DNA of 64,000 bases from sequence record OP172784, one strand, 5' to 3'. The stretch comes from Escherichia phage ECO07P1. The notes beneath the pieces were generated by a model. The model had not been told where the DNA came from, did not search any database, and saw only the letters and a program-made list of their open reading frames with translations. The translations under genes and the position numbers were made by a program. Shown here one piece after another: positions 28,102-63,502 of this stretch (its first letter is position 1; the number at the start of each line of letters is the position of its first letter).

Positions 28102-28911
28102 TTAGAAACGAGATGCGACTTTCGCATATACACTTACAATATCTTCTGCACCAGGTGCAGCTTTATCTTCTACAGCTTCAGTGACGAAATTCAGTCCGGC
28201 TGCTTCAGTATCAGGAGTATTTATACCCTCAGTAATAGTGCTTTCATCTTTATTAGACTTCTTCACCATTTCTACGATGGCACTCAATTTACTTGAGAAT
28301 TCATCTGAATAATCCATACCTTCGACCAGAGCAGAGACTTTTTCTTTTTGAGACTCAGTCAGATCTTTAGTACTTTCGCTCAATGCCACTTCACGCTGCA
28401 CATAATTGATATATGCGTCACGCTTATTGAGTTCTTCGAACAGACGAGCTGATTCTTCTTTATGTTCTTGCAGCTCTTCTTCCATTTCAGCTACAACATC
28501 AACTGATTCTTCTGGAACAACAACGTTGTGTTCAACAAAGAGCTCTTTTAATCCACCAAGCATGGATTCAAACAGTTCGGCTTTGATGCCTTTATCAACT
28601 GCTAATTTATTTTCAGCGAGCCATTCTTTCGCAAGATGGTCGATGAATTTAGAAGCTTGCTCAGCGATTTTCTTCTCAGCTTTTTCTTCGGCTTCTTCTT
28701 TATTTTTTTCTACTTCTTCTTCTGCTTTTTCAGCAATTTTAGCGATATGAGATTCAGCTAATTTAACGGCGTGCTGCTTGACGGTAGCTTCGAATACAGT
28801 GCCGAAAGTTTCTTTTGCTTCCGGAGAAATATTAACTGATTCGAAAATACTATCAAGAGCAACGGAAGCATCAATTTTCTGCGCTTCGGCAATCAGTTGT
28901 TCTTTAAGCAT
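28102..28911 (-). CDS. 22: prohead core scaffold protein gp22
   Basis: 269 aa, highly acidic coiled-coil-like translation; late promoter at 28939-28946. Confidence 0.85.
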   Translation of the reverse strand: MLKEQLIAEAQKIDASVALDSIFESVNISPEAKETFGTVFEATVKQHAVKLAESHIAKIAEKAEEEVEKNKEEAEEKAEKKIAEQASKFIDHLAKEWLAENKLAVDKGIKAELFESMLGGLKELFVEHNVVVPEESVDVVAEMEEELQEHKEESARLFEELNKRDAYINYVQREVALSESTKDLTESQKEKVSALVEGMDYSDEFSSKLSAIVEMVKKSNKDESTITEGINTPDTEAAGLNFVTEAVEDKAAPGAEDIVSVYAKVASRF

Positions 28912-28938: not shown

Positions 28939-28946
28939 TATTTATA
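28939..28946 (-). promoter_or_regulatory. late promoter upstream of gene 22
   Basis: TATAAATA on minus strand. Confidence 0.6.
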
Positions 28947-29580
28947 ACGCTTTTTTCATGGCCTCTGCGAGAGCCATATAGGCGTCATCGGCACTTGTAT
29001 CGGCTTCCGCCGTCTGTGATTCGGTAATTTCCTTAGGAGTTACCCATGCATCTGGAGCACTTGGACCCCATACTGCATCAACACCTACAGTTAATTTGAA
29101 TCCTTCGTTTACGATACGATAACCTTTATTTGTGTCAGTCAATGAACCTAATCCACGAGAAGAAACTCCTGGAATCCATCCGGCACGAATATTAGCTGCT
29201 AATTTATCTCCAGGACCATGGTCACCTTCAATAACACGAGCTCGTCCGTATACGTCATTTCCTTTCCACCACATATCTTCTATAATGATAGCGGCTTGCA
29301 TCGGGTCAACATTAGCGCGTGGAGGATGATTTAATTCTCCGAGAGCTTGTTTAGTTAAAACTTGCTCATTGATATAGTCTTTTACCGCTTTTTCTAATAT
29401 GCGTTTTGGATAAAGACGTTTATTTCTATTGACGACTTCCGCTTGCATGAATATTCCTTCAATGTATAAACCCGGTTTTAAACCTAGGTCTTTTCCATCG
29501 TGGGATTCAAGCATTGGCACACCATCAATAATTTCGCCAGGTTGACCCCAAGTTTCAATTAATAATTGGGGTTCATTCAT
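28942..29580 (-). CDS. 21: prohead core protease gp21
   Basis: 212 aa, as T4 gp21; synteny. Confidence 0.9.
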   Translation of the reverse strand: MNEPQLLIETWGQPGEIIDGVPMLESHDGKDLGLKPGLYIEGIFMQAEVVNRNKRLYPKRILEKAVKDYINEQVLTKQALGELNHPPRANVDPMQAAIIIEDMWWKGNDVYGRARVIEGDHGPGDKLAANIRAGWIPGVSSRGLGSLTDTNKGYRIVNEGFKLTVGVDAVWGPSAPDAWVTPKEITESQTAEADTSADDAYMALAEAMKKAL

Positions 29581-57736: not shown

Positions 57737-58461
57737 ATGAAACTAATCTTTTTAAGTGGTGTAAAGCGTAGTGGAAAAGATACTACTGCAGATTTTATCA
57801 TGGAAAATTATTCTGCAGTTAAATATCAACTTGCTGGTCCTATTAAGGATGCATTGGCTTATGCATGGGGTGTATTTGCAGCAAACACTGACTATCCTTG
57901 CTTAACTCGTAAAGAGTTTGAAGGAATTGACTATGATCGTGAGACTAATTTAAATCTGACTAAATTAGAAGTAATTACGATTATGGAACAAGCATTTTGC
58001 TATCTTAATGGTAAAAGCCCAATTAAAGGTGTGTTTGTTTTTGATGACGAAGGACAAGAATCAGTTAATTCCGTAGCATTTAACAAGATTATTGACGTTA
58101 TAAATAATATTGAAGATCAATGGTCAGTCCGTCGTCTGATGCAAGCCCTAGGTACGGATTTGATTGTTAATAACTTCGACCGCATGTATTGGGTAAAATT
58201 ATTTGCTTTAGATTATCTTGATAAATTTAACTCAGGTTATGATTATTATATCGTTCCTGATACTCGTCAAGATCATGAAATGGATGCGGCTAGGGCGATG
58301 GGTGCTACAGTAATTCATGTAGTTCGTCCTGGTCAAAAATCCAATGATACTCATATTACAGAAGCTGGATTGCCAATTCGTGATGGCGATTTAGTAATTA
58401 CAAACGATGGTTCTCTTGAAGAACTTTTTTCTAAAATTAAAAATACACTAAAGGTACTATA

Positions 58462-58462: not shown

Positions 58463-59159
<697 letters not shown>

Positions 59160-59171
59160 TTTCACAAAGTT

Positions 59172-59210
59172 GTTTACACGGGGTTTTAGTTGTGATACTA
59201 TTACCCTATC
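59172..59210 (+). promoter_or_regulatory. early promoter cassette upstream of first IP-like gene
   Basis: GTTTAC 59172-59177, TGa-TACTAT at 59196-59201, followed by ACCCTATC. Confidence 0.6.
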
Positions 59211-59237
59211 AAAACAAATGAGTGATTGGAGAATAAA

Positions 59238-59510
59238 ATGAAAACATTTAAAGAATTTATCAATGAAGCTGCTTTTAACGAAAAAGTAAAAATTAGCAAA
59301 GCTGTCAAGACTATGATTGATAACATCAATTACCTATATGGTATTGATTTAACTGACTATGTAACAGTTGGTAACAAACGTAACTATTTCGTGTTTGACA
59401 TCTCTGAACTTGACCAGAATCAAATTAACAACATTGAGCGTTTTGCTAATGATAAGGGTCTTCGTCATGAGTCAGCGGGTTATAAAAAATACGCAATTTA
59501 TTTAAAATGA
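59238..59510 (+). CDS. internal-protein-like small protein with N-terminal capsid targeting sequence
   Basis: Starts MKTFKEFINE|AA.., matching the T4 IP capsid-targeting sequence/gp21 cleavage context (MKTYQEFIAE|A recalled); preceded by early promoter cassette and RBS GGAGAATAAAATG. Confidence 0.6.
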   Translation: MKTFKEFINEAAFNEKVKISKAVKTMIDNINYLYGIDLTDYVTVGNKRNYFVFDISELDQNQINNIERFANDKGLRHESAGYKKYAIYLK

Positions 59511-59545
59511 GTTTACTTTTAAATAGGGTTGTGGTACTATTATCT
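59511..59545 (+). promoter_or_regulatory. early promoter cassette upstream of second IP-like gene
   Basis: GTTTAC 59511-59516, TGg-TACTAT extended -10. Confidence 0.55.
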
Positions 59546-59570
59546 CATCAAAATTAATTAGGAAAATAAA

Positions 59571-59879
59571 ATGAAAACATTTAAAGAATTTATCAATGAA
59601 GCGGCTGCACCAAAGACATTCATTATTTATACTCAAGCGGGTCTTGATGATGAGTATGCGGAAGCAATTCTGAGGTCACTTGCTAAGAACGGTGTTGAAG
59701 TAATTGCTTCGGACTTTAAGAAAGGGGCTTCCGAGATGTTTATTTCTATAACTAAAGGATCTAAAGCTAAAATCAAATCATCATTCGGTGTTGCTCGTAC
59801 CGATCAAATCGACAATCATGACTTTAAACAAACTGGTGCTAAACGACAGAATACAATTGCATCACGCGGAATAAAATAG
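59571..59879 (+). CDS. internal-protein-like small protein with capsid targeting sequence
   Basis: Starts MKTFKEFINE|AAAPK..; own early promoter cassette. Confidence 0.6.
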   Translation: MKTFKEFINEAAAPKTFIIYTQAGLDDEYAEAILRSLAKNGVEVIASDFKKGASEMFISITKGSKAKIKSSFGVARTDQIDNHDFKQTGAKRQNTIASRGIK

Positions 59880-59891
59880 TTTATAAAAACC

Positions 59892-59930
59892 GTTTACTTT
59901 TAGATAGGGTAGTGATACTATTACCCTATC
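59892..59930 (+). promoter_or_regulatory. early promoter cassette with flanking inverted repeat (promoter-early-stem-loop-like)
   Basis: GTTTAC 59892-59897; arms GATAGGGTA and TACCCTATC flank the -10 GTGATACTAT. Confidence 0.6.
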
Positions 59931-59949
59931 AACTACTGAGGAGAATAAA

Positions 59950-60174
59950 ATGAAAACATGTAAAAAATTTATTGTAGAAGCTAAAAGACACGAAGACGAA
60001 CTGCCTTTTGTTTCAAAAACCTTTGATGGAACATTGGCTGATTTTAAAAAAATTCCTAATGATAAACTTGCTAAATTGGTTGGTTCTATTAGTGAAAAAG
60101 ATGGCAAGGTCACATTTTCTGCTCAAGGCGTTGCCAATCTCAAGAAACTTTTGAAAGCCGCTGGTGTTGAATAA
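59950..60174 (+). CDS. internal-protein-like small protein with degenerate capsid targeting sequence
   Basis: Starts MKTCKKFIVE|AK..; own early promoter cassette and RBS GAGGAGAATAAAATG. Confidence 0.5.
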   Translation: MKTCKKFIVEAKRHEDELPFVSKTFDGTLADFKKIPNDKLAKLVGSISEKDGKVTFSAQGVANLKKLLKAAGVE

Positions 60175-60177
60175 ATT

Positions 60178-60216
60178 GTTTACATAGGGTTTTAGTTGTG
60201 ATACTATTACCCTATC
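60178..60216 (+). promoter_or_regulatory. early promoter cassette with flanking inverted repeat
   Basis: GTTTAC 60178-60183; arms ATAGGGT and ACCCTAT; identical leader ACCCTATCAACTACTGAGGAGAATAAAATG as at 59920-59952. Confidence 0.6.
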
Positions 60217-60235
60217 AACTACTGAGGAGAATAAA

Positions 60236-60418
60236 ATGAAACGTTGTGAATTAATTCGAAATGTTGCTATTGCAATTTCTGCTTCTGCTTTTAGTTTTTC
60301 AATGTTTGTTGGATTTATATGCGGATTATTGACTACAGCAGAAAATGTTTTTTCACTTGTAGTAGCATTTTTAATTGGTTTAATTGCTATCGTTATGGAT
60401 AAAATTTCTAAAGGTTAA
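60236..60418 (+). CDS. small membrane protein (two predicted hydrophobic helices)
   Basis: 60 aa; hydrophobic stretches AIAISASAFSFSMFVGFICGLL and VFSLVVAFLIGLIAIV; own early promoter cassette. Confidence 0.45.
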   Translation: MKRCELIRNVAIAISASAFSFSMFVGFICGLLTTAENVFSLVVAFLIGLIAIVMDKISKG

Positions 60419-60420
60419 TA

Positions 60421-60708
60421 ATGATTCTTTATGCGAAAGTATCGTCCGTTGAAAATGGATATAAATATGATCAAGATGCGGCTAAAGCCTTGATTGATGA
60501 TTATGGCATTTTAACATGTTTTGAAGTTGAAAAGGTTTACATTGACCGTTCATCTTCTCAAGTTAAATTAGTAAAGGAAGACCGTAAATTTAATACAGTA
60601 AATTTTGATTTCTTTATTGAAACAGAAAAAGGTCCTCTTGAATATGATATTTTCAAGAATCCTTTGGGTCTTGAATGCATCGTAAACATGTATTATCATA
60701 AATGGTAA
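60421..60708 (+). CDS. hypothetical protein (95 aa)
   Basis: ORF start overlaps previous stop (TAATAATG). Confidence 0.45.
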   Translation: MILYAKVSSVENGYKYDQDAAKALIDDYGILTCFEVEKVYIDRSSSQVKLVKEDRKFNTVNFDFFIETEKGPLEYDIFKNPLGLECIVNMYYHKW

Positions 60709-60710
60709 AT

Positions 60711-60735
60711 ATGCTTTAAGAATTATTTGTTATTA
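60711..60735 (+). promoter_or_regulatory. MotA-dependent middle promoter upstream of tRNA cluster
   Basis: Same ATGCTTTAAGAATTATTTGTTATTATTAA block as at 1077-1107. Confidence 0.5.
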
Positions 60736-60805: not shown

Positions 60806-60878
60806 TGGGAATTAGCCAAGTTGGTAAGGCACTGGATTTTGATTCCAGGATGCAAAGGTTCGAGTCCTTTATTCCCAG
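60806..60878 (+). tRNA. tRNA-Gln (anticodon UUG)
   Basis: Hand-folded cloverleaf: acceptor TGGGAAT/ATTCCCA, anticodon stem CTGGA/TCCAG with loop TTTTGAT, T-arm AAAGG-TTCGAGT-CCTTT. Confidence 0.8.
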
Positions 60879-60879
60879 C

Positions 60880-60966
60880 GCGAGAATGGTCAAATTGGTA
60901 AAGGCACAGCACTTAAAATGCTGCGGAATGATTTCCTTGTGGGTTCGAGTCCCACTTCTCGCACCA
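60880..60966 (+). tRNA. tRNA-Leu (anticodon UAA), class II with long variable arm
   Basis: Acceptor GCGAGAA/TTCTCGC, anticodon loop CTTAAAA, long variable arm, T-loop TTCGAGT, 3' CCA encoded. Confidence 0.8.
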
Positions 60967-60971
60967 AATTT

Positions 60972-61045
<74 letters not shown>

Positions 61046-61055
61046 ATTTAATTTA

Positions 61056-61130
61056 CTCCGTGTAGCTCAGTTTGGTAGAGCGTCTGCTTTGGGAGCAGAA
61101 TGTCGCAGGTTCAAATCCTGCCGCGGAGAC
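61056..61130 (+). tRNA. tRNA-Pro (anticodon UGG)
   Basis: Acceptor CTCCGTG/CGCGGAG, anticodon stem TCTGC/GCAGA with loop TTTGGGA, T-loop TTCAAAT. Confidence 0.8.
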
Positions 61131-61131
61131 T

Positions 61132-61221
61132 GGAGGCGTGGCAGAGTGGTTTAATGCACCGGTCTTGAAAACCGGCAGTCGCTCCGGCGACTCATAGGTT
61201 CAAATCCTATCGCCTCCGCCA
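61132..61221 (+). tRNA. tRNA-Ser (anticodon UGA), class II
   Basis: Acceptor GGAGGCG/CGCCTCC, anticodon stem CCGGT/ACCGG with loop CTTGAAA, long variable arm, CCA encoded. Confidence 0.8.
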
Positions 61222-61226
61222 GTTTT

Positions 61227-61302
61227 GCTGATTTAGCTTAGTAGGTAGAGCAACTCACTTGTAATGAGAAGGTCGGCGGTTCGATTCCGTCAATCAGCAC
61301 CA
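61227..61302 (+). tRNA. tRNA-Thr (anticodon UGU)
   Basis: Acceptor GCTGATT/AATCAGC, anticodon loop CTTGTAA, T-loop TTCGATT, CCA encoded. Confidence 0.8.
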
Positions 61303-61303
61303 A

Positions 61304-61378
61304 GGCCCTGTAGCTGGAAGGTTCAAGCAAGCGACTCATAATCGCCAGATGGTGGTTCAATTCCACCCAGGGCCACCA
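61304..61378 (+). tRNA. tRNA with CAU anticodon (Ile via lysidine modification, or Met)
   Basis: Acceptor GGCCCTG/CAGGGCC, anticodon loop CTCATAA, T-loop TTCAATT, CCA encoded; the T4 equivalent is recalled as annotated Ile. Confidence 0.75.
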
Positions 61379-61391
61379 AATTAAGAATTAA

Positions 61392-61478
61392 GGGGAGTTA
61401 TCCCGTAGAGGTAGCGGTGTGGACTGTAAATCCATTGTCATTGCGACTCGGGTGGTTCGACTCCATCACTCCCCACCA
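61392..61478 (+). tRNA. tRNA-Tyr (anticodon GUA), class II
   Basis: Acceptor GGGGAGT/ACTCCCC, anticodon stem GTGGA/TCCAT with loop CTGTAAA, 15-nt variable arm as expected for bacterial-type tRNA-Tyr, T-loop TTCGACT, CCA encoded. Confidence 0.7.
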
Positions 61479-61482
61479 ATTT

Positions 61483-61557
61483 GGATGTGTAGCTCAATGG
61501 CAGAGCGATCGCCTGTTAAGCGATTGGTTATAGGTTCGAATCCTATCACGTCCGCCA
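61483..61557 (+). tRNA. tRNA-Asn (anticodon GUU)
   Basis: Acceptor GGATGTG/CACGTCC (one G-U), anticodon stem ATCGC/GCGAT with loop CTGTTAA, T-loop TTCGAAT, CCA encoded. Confidence 0.7.
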
Positions 61558-61561
61558 AATC

Positions 61562-61637
61562 CGAGGCATAGCTCAGAAGGAAGAGCAAGGACCTTCTAAG
61601 TCCTAGGTCGTAGGTTCGATCCCTACTGCCTCGACCA
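61562..61637 (+). tRNA. tRNA-Arg (anticodon UCU)
   Basis: Acceptor CGAGGCA/TGCCTCG, anticodon stem AGGAC/GTCCT with loop CTTCTAA, T-loop TTCGATC, CCA encoded. Confidence 0.8.
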
Positions 61638-62004: not shown

Positions 62005-62345
62005 GAAACCGGGTCGCTACCGGTAAGTCGTCGGACTGATGTTCCCTGGGTAAGGACTGGCATTAACAAATCTTTACGATTTGTTAATGTCCCCTTACAT
62101 CACAGCAGAAACGGCGCACCGAATTATCGATTCGAGGAAATATCTTTGCCGTAAGCCGAGTAGCGTTTTTGACGGAACGTTCGGATATGGTCGAGATATG
62201 GCCTTTTAAAAATATTAAGTAGCGTCAACTGCTTAATAACCGGGTTCGAATCCCGGCGTTTCGTACAAACACTTGCCTTAGCAGGTGGAACCCCGACAAG
62301 GTTGCCGCAAGGCTTAGCCCCGACCGAAAGGTTGGGGCTTTTTAG
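62005..62345 (+). ncRNA. putative structured stable RNA(s) / tRNA-like element, ending in an intrinsic terminator
   Basis: No ORF of 60 aa or more; perfect 11-bp hairpin ATTAACAAATC-TTTAC-GATTTGTTAAT (about 62057-62083); tRNA-like T-arm CCGGG-TTCGAAT-CCCGG with possible acceptor pairing CGGAACG/CGTTTCG; terminator AGCCCCGACC-GAAA-GGTTGGGGCT-TTTTT at 62316-62345. Confidence 0.3.
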
Positions 62346-62433: not shown

Positions 62434-62997
62434 ATGAAAACTTATGCCGAATTTTTAACCGAAGCAGCAAAATTACCATCTGAAGCAGAACTTACTAAAG
62501 TATTCTTCCAATTGGACCCAAAAGACCGTGGCGATTTTCTTAAGTGGAAAGCTAAAGCTATTGAAATGTATAACATTGATAATAGTTCTTTTACGATGAG
62601 TCAAGAAAATAAATTCAATAAAGCATTTTTCAAAATTTCTAAGAAACTGGCATCTGGCGCTCAGGTTCCTAAATCTGCCTTAGCTACTCCTGAACGTGCG
62701 CCTGTTAAAATTTCTAAGAATATGTTCGACACTAAAAAATACGTTAATGCTTTGAATAAAGCTCTTGATGCATTGGATGATGCAAAGAAGGCAGCCCGTG
62801 ATCTTCAAGACGTGTACATCGATTTTGATCGTAAAACTAAAGGTTCTATTTCAAATAGCGAACGCAATAGTGTAAGCGTTTATTCTGATAGCCTTGACGT
62901 TCTTGGCGATGCGTATACTGAAATTAAAAATCGTATTAACACCGCATCTAAACTAAAAGCTGCCGCAGAAGCTATAATAGCTAAACTAGATAAATAA
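62434..62997 (+). CDS. internal-protein-like protein with capsid targeting sequence (IPIII-sized)
   Basis: 187 aa starting MKTYAEFLTE|AAK.., very close to the recalled T4 IP capsid-targeting sequence; followed by terminator 63005-63030. Confidence 0.6.
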   Translation: MKTYAEFLTEAAKLPSEAELTKVFFQLDPKDRGDFLKWKAKAIEMYNIDNSSFTMSQENKFNKAFFKISKKLASGAQVPKSALATPERAPVKISKNMFDTKKYVNALNKALDALDDAKKAARDLQDVYIDFDRKTKGSISNSERNSVSVYSDSLDVLGDAYTEIKNRINTASKLKAAAEAIIAKLDK

Positions 62998-63004
62998 TTT
63001 TAAA

Positions 63005-63030
63005 TCCCTATCTAAATGATAGGGCTTTTT
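63005..63030 (+). terminator. intrinsic terminator after IP-like gene
   Basis: CCCTATC-TAAAT-GATAGGG followed by CTTTTT. Confidence 0.6.
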
Positions 63031-63164: not shown

Positions 63165-63200
63165 GTTTACATCCCCGTTCTTCCATGGTACTATACAACT
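63165..63200 (+). promoter_or_regulatory. early promoter with A/T-rich upstream element
   Basis: TTTTTAAAAAATTTTTT tract, GTTTAC 63165-63170, GG-TACTAT -10, leader TATCAACTACTGA. Confidence 0.55.
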
Positions 63201-63238
63201 ATCAACTACTGATACAGAAAAACAACTTGGAGAATGAA

Positions 63239-63502
63239 ATGGATAATTACGGCGAACTGTTCAACTTCTTTATGAAATGCGTTTCAGAAGATTTCGGTCG
63301 TACAGTGAATGATATTAAAGTCATCGGTCCTGACCATCCGATGTTTGAAACTTACGCAGTAATGGGTAATGAAGACGGTCAGTGGTATACTGTAAAAGTT
63401 GTGATTAATATGTTCACTGCTGAAGGTTATGTTAAACTGTCTTCTAAAGTTTACCACGATAACGATGAAATCGCAGAAGAATATTTCAATAATATGAAAT
63501 AA
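63239..63502 (+). CDS. hypothetical early protein (87 aa from Met at MDNYGELF)
   Basis: RBS GGAGAATGAAATG; early promoter cassette at 63165-63192; track ORF start at 63185 lies inside the promoter and is unlikely. Confidence 0.45.
   Translation: MDNYGELFNFFMKCVSEDFGRTVNDIKVIGPDHPMFETYAVMGNEDGQWYTVKVVINMFTAEGYVKLSSKVYHDNDEIAEEYFNNMK

What the first reader, a model, noticed from the sequence alone, without database searches (positions are those of the whole stretch)
59160..60720. Cassette-like locus of small injected-protein candidates, each with its own early promoter and a capsid-targeting N-terminus
Three consecutive small ORFs (59238, 59571, 59950) begin MKTFKEFINE-AA / MKTFKEFINE-AA / MKTCKKFIVE-AK, which matches the T4 internal-protein capsid-targeting sequence cleaved by the gp21 prohead protease after Glu10 (established for T4 IPI/II/III). 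Downstream of the shared N-terminus the three proteins are unrelated. Each is preceded by a near-identical promoter block (GTTTAC, about 18 nt, TGnTACTAT, ACCCTATC) and RBS. A 2-helix membrane ORF (60236) and a 95-aa ORF follow under a fourth copy of the same promoter. This is the architecture of a hyperplastic cargo locus: a reusable packaging tag fused to variable payloads. T4 IPI is an injected anti-restriction protein, so these are candidate injected anti-defence proteins with undescribed payloads.
Basis: partly seen in the sequence, partly recalled or inferred. Interest (0 to 1): 0.75.

Follow-up and report, generated by a model that had tools for sequence, protein, structure and literature searches.

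The report
T4-type internal-protein cassettes Ip9, Ip7, Ip8
This is the well-known variable "internal protein" locus of T4-like phages, here carrying the already named genes Ip9, Ip7 and Ip8. These small proteins are packed into the phage head and probably injected to disarm host defences, so the architecture is ordinary, but their targets are still unknown.

Summary
Three consecutive small ORFs (59238, 59571, 59950) start with a T4-type capsid-targeting sequence. Each follows a copy of a 46-nt early-promoter block, and a fourth copy precedes the next two ORFs.

The locus is not new. The window comes from a Tequatrovirus, and the locus lies between gene 57B (Acb1) and the tRNA cluster. This is the polymorphic internal-protein (Ip) locus attributed to Repoila et al. 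1994.

- The three ORFs are Ip9 (90% identical to RB32 Ip9), Ip7 (96% identical to RB32 Ip7) and Ip8 (90.5% identical to VR5 ip8).
- The two ORFs that follow are the conserved T4 genes trna.4 and trna.2, not cargo.
- The promoter blocks match published PeSL (early promoter plus stem-loop) shuffling elements. Breakpoints against other phages fall inside them.
- The gp21 protease and gp22 scaffold needed for packaging and processing are encoded in the same window.

Published work gives targets for Ip1, Ip2, Ip3 (distinct GmrSD enzymes) and Ip6 (McrBC). Ip4-10 were tested against GmrSD variants, and the apparent ip7 and ip8 hits did not reproduce. The architecture and gene families are therefore known. 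What Ip7, Ip8 and Ip9 act on remains open.

A fourth ORF with a capsid-targeting sequence, at 62434, is "hypothetical protein" (or "phage protein", or unannotated) in every record listed of 164 matches.

The parts
58704..59159 (+). Gene 57B (Acb1 anti-CBASS phosphodiesterase). It is the conserved left anchor of the locus.
   Evidence: Pfam Acb1, E 2.6e-60. Same position as T4 57B.
59167..59212 (+). Promoter block copy 1, PeSL type. -35 TTTACA at 59173-59178, extended -10 TGATACTAT ending at 59201, with an overlapping hairpin.
   Evidence: Repeat family D3. Promoter scan. Hairpin dG -14.8 kcal/mol, z -2.6.
59238..59510 (+). Ip9 precursor, 90 aa. The tag is MKTFKEFINE, with the predicted cut before A. 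The predicted mature protein has 80 aa and pI 8.9.
   Evidence: 90% identical to RB32 Ip9 and 88% to RB15 Ip9, Q38376. phrog_7673 'internal head protein', E 3.6e-54. AF2 pLDDT 76.5.
59506..59551 (+). Promoter block copy 2. -35 TTTACT and -10 TGGTACTAT are present, but the 3' hairpin arm has decayed.
   Evidence: 63% identity to copy 1.. No stable hairpin (z +0.9).
59571..59879 (+). Ip7 precursor, 102 aa. The tag is MKTFKEFINE, with the predicted cut before A. The predicted mature protein has 92 aa and pI 9.7, with a ferredoxin-like core and a basic, poorly predicted C-terminal tail.
59887..59932 (+). Promoter block copy 3. A 12-bp hairpin (59903-59930) encloses the -10 box.
   Evidence: Hairpin dG -16.4 kcal/mol, z -3.3.
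59950..60174 (+). Ip8 precursor, 74 aa. The tag MKTCKKFIVE is atypical, with the predicted cut before A. The predicted mature protein has 64 aa and pI 9.4.
   Evidence: 90.5% identical to the VR5 gene annotated 'ip8, similar to Ip8 of RB15'. phrog_8765 'internal virion protein', E 2.3e-23. Relatives carry MKTYQKFIVE or MKTYQEFITE.
60173..60218 (+). Promoter block copy 4, which drives trna.4 and trna.2.
   Evidence: 93% identical to copy 1. Promoter scan. Hairpin dG -14.2 kcal/mol, z -2.3.
60236..60418 (+). trna.4 homologue. A conserved 60-aa hydrophobic (predicted membrane) protein with no packaging tag; not cargo.
   Evidence: 100% identical over 60 aa to T4 and RB32 trna.4. phrog_1692.
60421..60708 (+). 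trna.2 homologue, 95 aa and acidic. The T4 gene trna.3 that normally lies between trna.4 and trna.2 is absent here.
   Evidence: 97% identical to T4 trna.2. Junction at 60409-60421.
60806..61637 (+). Cluster of 10 tRNA genes. It is the conserved right anchor of the locus.
   Evidence: ARAGORN. Rfam.
62434..62997 (+). A fourth tag-bearing ORF, 187 aa. The tag is MKTYAEFLTE, with the predicted cut before A. It lies in a second locus downstream of the tRNAs and has no PeSL block upstream.
   Evidence: Shares only the tag with T4 IPIII. Among 164 matching phage records, every listed one calls it 'hypothetical protein' or 'phage protein', or has no annotation.
28942..29580 (-). gp21 prohead protease, the enzyme expected to remove the tags.
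   Evidence: Pfam Peptidase_S77, E 1.4e-111.
28102..28911 (-). gp22 scaffolding core protein, the expected docking partner of the tag.
   Evidence: Pfam T4_CASP, E 3.7e-90. Internal proteins co-purify with gp22 (PMC9026906).

Best explanation
This is the polymorphic internal-protein (Ip) locus of a T-even phage (Tequatrovirus). Here it carries three cassettes, Ip9, Ip7 and Ip8, between gene 57B and trna.4.

**Cassette structure.** Each cassette has a PeSL-type early promoter with an overlapping stem-loop, a ribosome-binding site, a 10-codon capsid-targeting sequence and a payload unrelated to the others.

**Proposed mechanism.**
1. The precursor is made from its own sigma-70-type promoter. Late in infection it is probably also made by read-through from the late-promoter motif at 58099.
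2. The N-terminal tag M-K-T-(F/Y)-x-E-F-I-x-E docks the precursor onto the gp22 scaffolding core of the assembling prohead.
3. The gp21 protease cuts after Glu10 (motif I-x-E, then A), releasing a small basic protein of 6.9-9.9 kDa (pI 8.9-9.7) that stays in the head with the DNA.
4. The protein is ejected into the next host with the DNA. There it acts before any phage gene is expressed, most likely as a stoichiometric inhibitor of a modification-dependent (type IV) restriction enzyme or another first-line defence.

**How the locus varies.** The roughly 110-bp promoter/RBS/tag unit is repeated before each payload. It serves as portable homology for recombination, which inserts, deletes and swaps cassettes between related phages.

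**Shown here:** gene identities, tag and cleavage motifs, presence of gp21 and gp22, repeat structure and breakpoint positions.
**Inferred:** packaging, cleavage, injection and the anti-defence role.
For: **Context.** The window is a Tequatrovirus. The locus is 98.5% identical over its full length to Salmonella phage F13076, and 893 phage records match some part of it. The gene order 1, 57A, 57B, Ip genes, trna.4, trna.2, tRNAs is the same as in T4 and RB32.

**Identities.** Ip9, Ip7 and Ip8. PHROGs label them 'internal head protein' or 'internal virion protein'.

**Tag.**
- It aligns with T4 IPII and IPIII, MKTYQEFIAE followed by A.
- For IPIII, the first 10 residues suffice for packaging. 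Residues 4 and 7 govern targeting; residues 8 and 10 govern processing (PMC9026906).
- Ile8 and Glu10 are present in all three proteins.

**Machinery.** gp21, gp22, gp23 and gp20 are encoded in the window.

**Cassette shuffling.**
- 84 tag-bearing ORFs in 25 payload families were found across 40 loci.
- The same payload family carries 2-5 different tag variants, and the same tag sits on different payloads.
- Against T4, homology runs 58704-59259 (through MKTFKEF), then resumes at promoter copy 4 (60173). Against an Ip7-only phage (L034), homology breaks at 59273 and resumes at 59527.

**PeSL match.** The blocks fit the published T4/PST PeSL consensus TTTACW-N17-TAYWAT plus a stem-loop (PMC4122927).

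**Function by analogy.** Ip1, Ip2 and Ip3 each block one GmrSD enzyme (PMC12373910). Ip6 (bas37_0260, 95% identical to PST IpVI) blocks McrBC (bioRxiv 10.1101/2025.11.20.689424).

**Folds.** The models show small generic alpha/beta modules with no specific structural relative, and in particular no specific enzyme match. This fits binders rather than catalysts.
Against: - There is no direct evidence here that Ip7, Ip8 or Ip9 are in virions, are processed, or are injected.
- Ip4-10 were tested against GmrSD variants, and the apparent ip7 and ip8 effects could not be reproduced. If they are anti-restriction proteins, the targets lie outside that panel.
- The Ip8 allele here has Cys at tag position 4 and Lys at position 6, where relatives have Tyr and Glu or Lys. 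Position 4 is a targeting determinant, so its packaging may be impaired.
- No late-promoter motif (TATAAATA) lies directly upstream of any Ip gene. Late supply depends on continued early-promoter use or on read-through from 58099.
- All three mature proteins are basic, which also fits a DNA-associated structural role.
Confidence: 0.85

Rival explanations
1. The proteins are packaged, but they serve mainly as basic head-filling or DNA-associated proteins. In this reading they help charge neutralisation, DNA packing or prohead core assembly and do not inhibit a defence system.
For: - All three predicted mature proteins are basic, pI 8.9-9.7.
- About 300 copies of each T4 internal protein are present per head, which led to the early assumption that they interact with phage DNA. 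IPIII-minus and triple mutants show head-assembly aberrations (PMC9026906).
- No reproducible GmrSD inhibition was seen for ip4-10.
Against: - A structural role does not explain why payloads are unrelated and swapped so freely: 25 families in 40 loci.
- Every Ip with an identified target (Ip1, Ip2, Ip3, Ip6) inhibits a type IV restriction enzyme.
- The models show folded globular cores, not simple basic peptides.
Confidence: 0.15
2. One or more of the proteins act on a target class other than type IV restriction enzymes. Examples are an abortive-infection or signalling defence, a competing phage, or a host takeover function. In this reading the proteins are injected but not anti-restriction.
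For: - Results against the GmrSD panel were negative.
- The locus sits next to another counter-defence gene, Acb1 (anti-CBASS).
- The Ip7 core resembles ACT/RRM/HMA-type ferredoxin-like binding modules, and Ip9 is a generic alpha/beta sandwich. Neither resembles a known restriction inhibitor.
- Alt, another packaged and injected T4 protein, is a host-takeover enzyme (PMC9026906).
Against: - All four Ips with known targets hit type IV enzymes.
- Type IV enzymes are very diverse, and only a small panel was tested.
Confidence: 0.2
3. At least Ip8 in this phage is not efficiently packaged. Its tag has drifted, so it acts only as an early cytoplasmic protein or is decaying.
For: - The tag is MKTCKKFIVE, while relatives carry MKTYQKFIVE or MKTYQEFITE.
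- Residue 4 is a targeting determinant.
- The gene has its own early promoter.
- Many related phages match only 88% of the locus. The ~286-bp Ip8 cassette is about the size of the missing part, though I did not map which part is missing.
Against: - Phe7, Ile8 and Glu10 are intact.
- The ORF is full length and 100% identical in F13076.
- The suppressor analysis summarised in PMC9026906 tested amber codons at positions 2, 4, 7 and 8 with suppressors inserting seven different residues. The summary read here does not say which substitutions at position 4 are tolerated, and Cys was not among those tested.
Confidence: 0.1

Closest known systems
Polymorphic internal-protein locus of T-even phages (Repoila, Tetart, Bouet and Krisch 1994, EMBO J 13:4181), with the Ip5-Ip9-Ip7 arrangement of phage RB32 as a sequenced example
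   Same: - Same position, between 57B and trna.4.
- Same gene families: Ip9 at 90% and Ip7 at 96% identity.
- Same N-terminal tag.
- Direct repeats flank the cassettes; the RB32 annotation notes a '43 bp direct repeat'.
   Different: - This window has Ip9-Ip7-Ip8 and lacks Ip5.
- It lacks trna.3.
- The exact arrangement was found in only one GenBank record, Salmonella phage F13076.
- I could not read the 1994 paper itself. What it reports is taken from papers that cite it.
[quoted passage not shown]
   Same: - N-terminal capsid-targeting sequence with a gp21 cleavage motif.
- Small size.
- Ip1 and Ip6 lie in the same locus.
- Expected route: scaffold core, then cleavage, then injection.
   Different: - No sequence similarity beyond the tag.
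- T4 IPI has a 19-residue propeptide rather than 10.
- Targets are known for Ip1, Ip2, Ip3 (distinct GmrSD enzymes) and Ip6 (McrBC), but not for Ip7, Ip8 or Ip9.
PeSL elements (early promoter plus stem-loop) of T4-like phages (Arbiol et al. 2010; Comeau et al. 2014)
   Same: - Promoter consensus TTTACW-N17-TAYWAT.
- An associated stem-loop.
- A location between small non-essential ORFs.
- Coincidence with insertion, deletion and replacement junctions.
   Different: - Here the stem-loop overlaps the -10 box and is not followed by a T-run, so terminator function is doubtful. The terminator scan found none inside the locus.
- The homology unit extends through the ribosome-binding site into the first 10-12 codons (the tag).
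- Copy 2 has lost its stem.

Membership tests
T4-type internal proteins (tag-bearing, gp21-processed head proteins) | N-terminal capsid-targeting sequence of the form M-K-T-(Y/F)-x-E-F-(I/L)-x-E | tested here: met
   Ip9 and Ip7 carry MKTFKEFINE. Ip8 carries MKTCKKFIVE, which departs at positions 4 and 6. Aligned with T4 IPII and IPIII MKTYQEFIAE.
T4-type internal proteins (tag-bearing, gp21-processed head proteins) | gp21 cleavage motif (Ile/Leu at position 8, Glu at position 10, then a small residue) | tested here: met
   The motifs are I-N-E then A, I-N-E then A, and I-V-E then A. Positions 8 and 10 govern processing (PMC9026906).
T4-type internal proteins (tag-bearing, gp21-processed head proteins) | The genome encodes the gp21 protease and the gp22 scaffolding core | tested here: met
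   Peptidase_S77 at 28942-29580 and T4_CASP at 28102-28911.
T4-type internal proteins (tag-bearing, gp21-processed head proteins) | Sequence homology to a named Ip family | tested here: met
   Ip9 is 88-90% identical to the RB15 and RB32 proteins, Ip7 is 96% identical to RB32 Ip7, and Ip8 is 90.5% identical to VR5 ip8.
T4-type internal proteins (tag-bearing, gp21-processed head proteins) | Physically present in the virion in processed form and ejected with the DNA | not testable with these tools
   This needs virion proteomics or N-terminal sequencing. I found no open-access report for Ip7; I did not search for Ip8 or Ip9.
Ip-type inhibitors of type IV restriction enzymes (Ip1, Ip2, Ip3, Ip6) | Sequence or fold similarity of the mature part to a characterised inhibitor | tested here: not met
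Ip-type inhibitors of type IV restriction enzymes (Ip1, Ip2, Ip3, Ip6) | Blocks a specific GmrSD or McrBC enzyme | not testable with these tools
   In published tests of ip4-10 against GmrSD variants, the apparent ip7 and ip8 effects were not reproducible.
PeSL recombination/regulatory elements | Early promoter matching TTTACW-N17-TAYWAT | tested here: met
   All four copies match: TTTAC[A/T], a 17-nt spacer, then TACTAT preceded by TGn.
PeSL recombination/regulatory elements | An associated stable stem-loop | tested here: met
   Copies 1, 3 and 4 fold at -14.2 to -16.4 kcal/mol (z -2.3 to -3.3). Copy 2 has decayed. Terminator activity was not shown, and no T-run follows the stem.
PeSL recombination/regulatory elements | Lies at insertion, deletion or replacement junctions between related phages | tested here: met
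   Homology breakpoints against T4, RB32, L034, L035 and others fall within the blocks or the adjoining tag codons.

The most novel reading that the evidence does not exclude
Ip7, Ip8 and/or Ip9 may be injected inhibitors of a defence that is not a GmrSD-type enzyme, or of a type IV enzyme family not yet recognised. Published tests of ip4-10 against the GmrSD panel gave nothing reproducible. In addition, the 187-aa tag-bearing ORF at 62434-62997, labelled 'hypothetical protein' (or 'phage protein', or unannotated) in every record listed of 164 matches, may be an unrecognised packaged protein in a second variable locus downstream of the tRNA genes.
Probability: 0.3. Interest if true: 0.5.

Novelty: already known. 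Interest (0 to 1): 0.15.

Why it matters
The locus is a textbook case of a phage using one short packaging tag to load interchangeable counter-defence proteins into its capsid, so they arrive in the host before any phage gene is expressed. That principle and these three gene families are already described, so the finding adds no new kind of system.

What is still open is what Ip7, Ip8 and Ip9 act on. Four other Ips (Ip1, Ip2, Ip3, Ip6) each disable a different type IV restriction enzyme. Finding the targets of the remaining ones would help predict the host range of therapeutic T4-like phages. It could also reveal new modification-dependent defences.

Tried and rejected
- **Pfam.** No hits for the three Ips, trna.4 or trna.2.
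- **PDB sequence search.** Nothing meaningful for Ip9, Ip7, Ip8 or ORF187.
- **BFVD search with Ip9.** One significant hit, to an unnamed 535-aa viral protein (UPI0018AFBB59, E 3.5e-6), which I could not identify.
- **Is one of the window's Ips the newly reported McrBC inhibitor bas37_0260?** Rejected. That protein is IpVI (95% identical to PST IpVI) and shares only the tag with Ip7, Ip8 and Ip9.
- **Is ORF187 a diverged IPIII?** Rejected. Only residues 1-12 align.
- **Minus-strand ORFs in the locus** (59865-60113 and 59204-59329). No PHROG match, and they lie antisense to the Ip genes, so I treat them as non-coding.
- **Late promoter (TATAAATA) directly upstream of the Ip genes.** None. The nearest on the + strand is at 58099, inside gene 1.
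- **Papers not held.** Repoila 1994 (PMC395341) and Miller 2003 (PMC150520) are not in the library. What they say is taken from citing papers or marked as inference.
Full report
**What is in the sequence.** The region 59160-60720 holds five + strand ORFs:

| ORF | Length | N-terminus |
|---|---|---|
| 59238-59510 | 90 aa | MKTFKEFINEAA... |
| 59571-59879 | 102 aa | MKTFKEFINEAA... |
| 59950-60174 | 74 aa | MKTCKKFIVEAK... |
| 60236-60418 | 60 aa | MKRCELIRNV..., hydrophobic, no tag |
| 60421-60708 | 95 aa | MILYAKVSSV..., no tag |

The pattern MK[TS]xxxF[ILMV]xE occurs only four times in the six-frame translation of the whole 64-kb window. Each occurrence is at the start of a + strand ORF: these three plus one at 62434. 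Beyond residue 11 the three proteins show no detectable similarity to each other (BLASTP E at least 0.6).

A 46-nt block recurs at 59167, 59506, 59887 and 60173, with 63-93% identity to the first copy. The strict form GTTTAC-N15-TGnTA[CT][TA]AT occurs five times in 64 kb, all on the + strand, and four of these are in the locus. Each block is followed by a GGAG or GGAA ribosome-binding site and an ATG 29-37 nt after the -10 box.

**Genomic context.** The window is a piece of a Tequatrovirus (T4-like) genome. The locus and its flanks match 893 phage records. The best match is Salmonella phage F13076, at 98.5% identity over the full length.
- Upstream lie dNMP kinase (gene 1), 57A and 57B. The 57B product is Acb1 (Pfam E 2.6e-60).
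- Downstream lies a cluster of ten tRNA genes.
- In T4 the same interval holds ipI, trna.4, trna.3 and trna.2. In RB32 it holds Ip5, Ip9, Ip7, trna.4, trna.3 and trna.2.

**Gene identities.**
- ORF 59238 is Ip9. It is 90% identical to RB32 Ip9 and 88% identical to RB15 Ip9, UniProt Q38376. It matches phrog_7673 'internal head protein'.
- ORF 59571 is Ip7. It is 96% identical to RB32 Ip7, and several sources name the family 'Ip7 protein'.
- ORF 59950 is Ip8. It is 90.5% identical to the VR5 gene annotated 'ip8, similar to Ip8 of Enterobacteria phage RB15'. It matches phrog_8765 'internal virion protein'. An apparent 'Ip9' label in phage IME08 came from a one-base overlap with the neighbouring feature.
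- The 60-aa ORF is T4 trna.4, 100% identical. The 95-aa ORF is T4 trna.2, 97% identical. These are conserved genes without a packaging tag, not cargo.
- trna.3 is missing. The junction lies at a short AAAGGT/AGAGGT microhomology.

**The tag and the processing machinery.** T4 IPII and IPIII begin MKTYQEFIAE followed by A. T4 IPI begins MKTFKEFTSTTTPVSTITE followed by A. T4 ipI encodes 95 aa and the mature IPI* has 76 residues, so IPI loses 19 residues.

A review of the Black laboratory's work states three relevant points (PMC9026906):
- The first 10 residues of IPIII are sufficient for packaging.
- Targeting depends mainly on residues 4 and 7, and processing on residues 8 and 10.
- The internal proteins co-purify with the scaffold protein gp22.

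Ip9 and Ip7 here carry Phe4, Phe7, Ile8 and Glu10. Ip8 carries Cys4 and Lys6, where its relatives have MKTYQKFIVE or MKTYQEFITE. Its targeting may therefore be weaker.

The window also encodes the gp21 protease (28942-29580, Peptidase_S77, E 1.4e-111), the gp22 scaffold (28102-28911), gp23 and the gp20 portal. The predicted mature proteins are 6.9-9.9 kDa with pI 8.9-9.7.

**The promoter blocks are PeSL elements.** Krisch's group described composite early promoter plus stem-loop elements (PeSLs). These flank small non-essential ORFs in T4-like phages and mediate insertion, deletion and replacement by recombination, including excision of mini-circles (PMC2839356). For the T4/PST pair they give the consensus TTTACW-N17-TAYWAT. 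They state that similar observations had been made 20 years earlier in the T4 IP locus by Repoila et al. 1994 (PMC4122927).

All four copies here fit that consensus. Copies 1, 3 and 4 form hairpins of -14.2 to -16.4 kcal/mol (z -2.3 to -3.3) that enclose the -10 box. Copy 2 has lost its 3' arm. No T-run follows the hairpins, and the terminator scan finds none inside the locus. Terminator function is therefore not supported here.

**Evidence for cassette shuffling.** I fetched 36 loci encoding a 57B relative from IMG/VR and added T4, RB32, F13076 and the window.
- Downstream of 57B these 40 loci contain 84 tag-bearing ORFs in 25 payload families.
- One payload family carries several tag variants. 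For example, Ip9 occurs with five different decapeptides. The same decapeptide also sits on different payloads.
- Against T4, homology runs from 57B through the first seven codons (58704-59259), stops, and resumes exactly at promoter copy 4 (60173).
- Against an Ip7-only phage (L034), homology breaks at 59273 and resumes at 59527.

The repeated promoter/RBS/tag unit is thus where the exchanges happen.

**What the payloads might do.** No Pfam family and no PDB sequence relative exists for any of the three.

These models fit small binding modules but do not indicate a target.

The literature gives the functional frame:
- Ip1, Ip2 and Ip3 of T4 each inhibit a different GmrSD-type type IV restriction enzyme, with no cross-protection (PMC12373910).
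- A 2025 preprint reports that bas37_0260, encoded at the ipI position of phage Bas37, inhibits McrBC. I identified that protein as IpVI, 95% identical to PST IpVI. It shares only the tag with Ip7, Ip8 and Ip9.
- The Nature Communications study also tested ip4-10 against GmrSD variants. It notes that apparent interactions, such as ip7 with CLS_011 and ip8 with the CLS_018/019 pair, could not be reproduced.

The targets of Ip7, Ip8 and Ip9 therefore remain unknown.

**Expression timing.** The four promoters are sigma-70 type, so they should be active early. No TATAAATA late-promoter motif lies directly upstream of an Ip gene. The nearest + strand copy is at 58099 inside gene 1, and no terminator-like site lies between it and 62316. 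Late supply to proheads could come from read-through or from protein made earlier. This is inference.

**Verdict.** The three payloads are named families, and Ip7 and Ip8 at least have been screened experimentally. The novelty class is 'already known' and interest is low. The remaining open question, what Ip7, Ip8 and Ip9 act on, needs experiments, not further sequence analysis.

The most useful by-product is the 187-aa tag-bearing ORF at 62434-62997. It lies outside the classical locus. Among its 164 matching phage records, every listed one calls it 'hypothetical protein' or 'phage protein', or has no annotation. It shares only the tag with T4 IPIII.

Noticed in passing
window 62434-62997 (+): A 187-aa ORF begins MKTYAEFLTE followed by AA, a full capsid-targeting sequence with a cleavage motif. 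It lies downstream of the tRNA cluster and has no PeSL promoter. It shares only residues 1-12 with T4 IPIII. It belongs to phrog_2280 'unknown function'. Among 164 matching phage records, every listed one calls it 'hypothetical protein' or 'phage protein', or has no annotation. A second tag-bearing family (153-205 aa, for example MKSYAQFLNE...) sits next to it in related phages (L001, L002, L004, Bas37) but is absent from the window.
   Followed up: partly
window 59950-59982 (+): The Ip8 allele has an atypical tag, MKTCKKFIVE, with Cys4 and Lys6. It is shared only with phage F13076. Close relatives have MKTYQKFIVE or MKTYQEFITE. Position 4 is reported to be a targeting determinant, so packaging of this allele may be reduced.
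   Followed up: partly
window 60409-60421 (+): The T4 gene trna.3 (about 400 bp) is cleanly absent between trna.4 and trna.2. The junction is at an AAAGGT/AGAGGT microhomology, and trna.4 loses its last codon. Among the records examined, only F13076 shares this deletion.
   Followed up: partly
window 58704-59159 (+): Gene 57B is Acb1, the anti-CBASS phosphodiesterase (Pfam E 2.6e-60). Several GenBank records still label it 'RNA ligase'. The Ip cassettes therefore sit directly next to another counter-defence gene.
   Followed up: yes
window 60806-61637 (+): The tRNA cluster has ten genes (Gln, Leu, Gly, Pro, Ser, Thr, Met/Ile-CAU, Tyr, Asn, Arg), against eight in T4. It lacks the segB homing endonuclease that interrupts the cluster in T4, RB32, PST and F13076.
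   Followed up: no
window 62010-62340 (+): This stretch has no convincing ORF and contains a tRNA-like T-arm sequence (GGTTCGAATCC) and a strong terminator-like hairpin at 62316-62339. It is in roughly the position of the T4 stable RNAs rnaC and rnaD. No Rfam family reached threshold there.
   Followed up: partly
protein P0014 (Escherichia phage OLB35 'ip7 protein', 77 aa): This annotated protein is a chimera. Its N-terminal part is Ip7 (from about residue 29 to 72) and its C-terminal 32 residues are Ip9. It has no packaging tag. It looks like a recombination or deletion product between adjacent cassettes.
   Followed up: no
BFVD entry UPI0018AFBB59 (535 aa): This is the only significant structural match of the Ip9 model among viral proteins (Foldseek E 3.5e-6, TM 0.77 over the query, 29% identity). 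An Ip9-like module therefore appears to be embedded in a much larger viral protein, which I could not identify.
   Followed up: no
window 63165-63194 (+): A fifth copy of the same early-promoter motif (GTTTAC-N15-TGGTACTAT) lies upstream of the ORF at 63185-63502 (phrog_2678, unknown function). It has no stable hairpin. It follows a terminator-like hairpin at 63006-63024 whose arms use the same CCCTATC/GATAGGG sequence as the promoter blocks.
   Followed up: no
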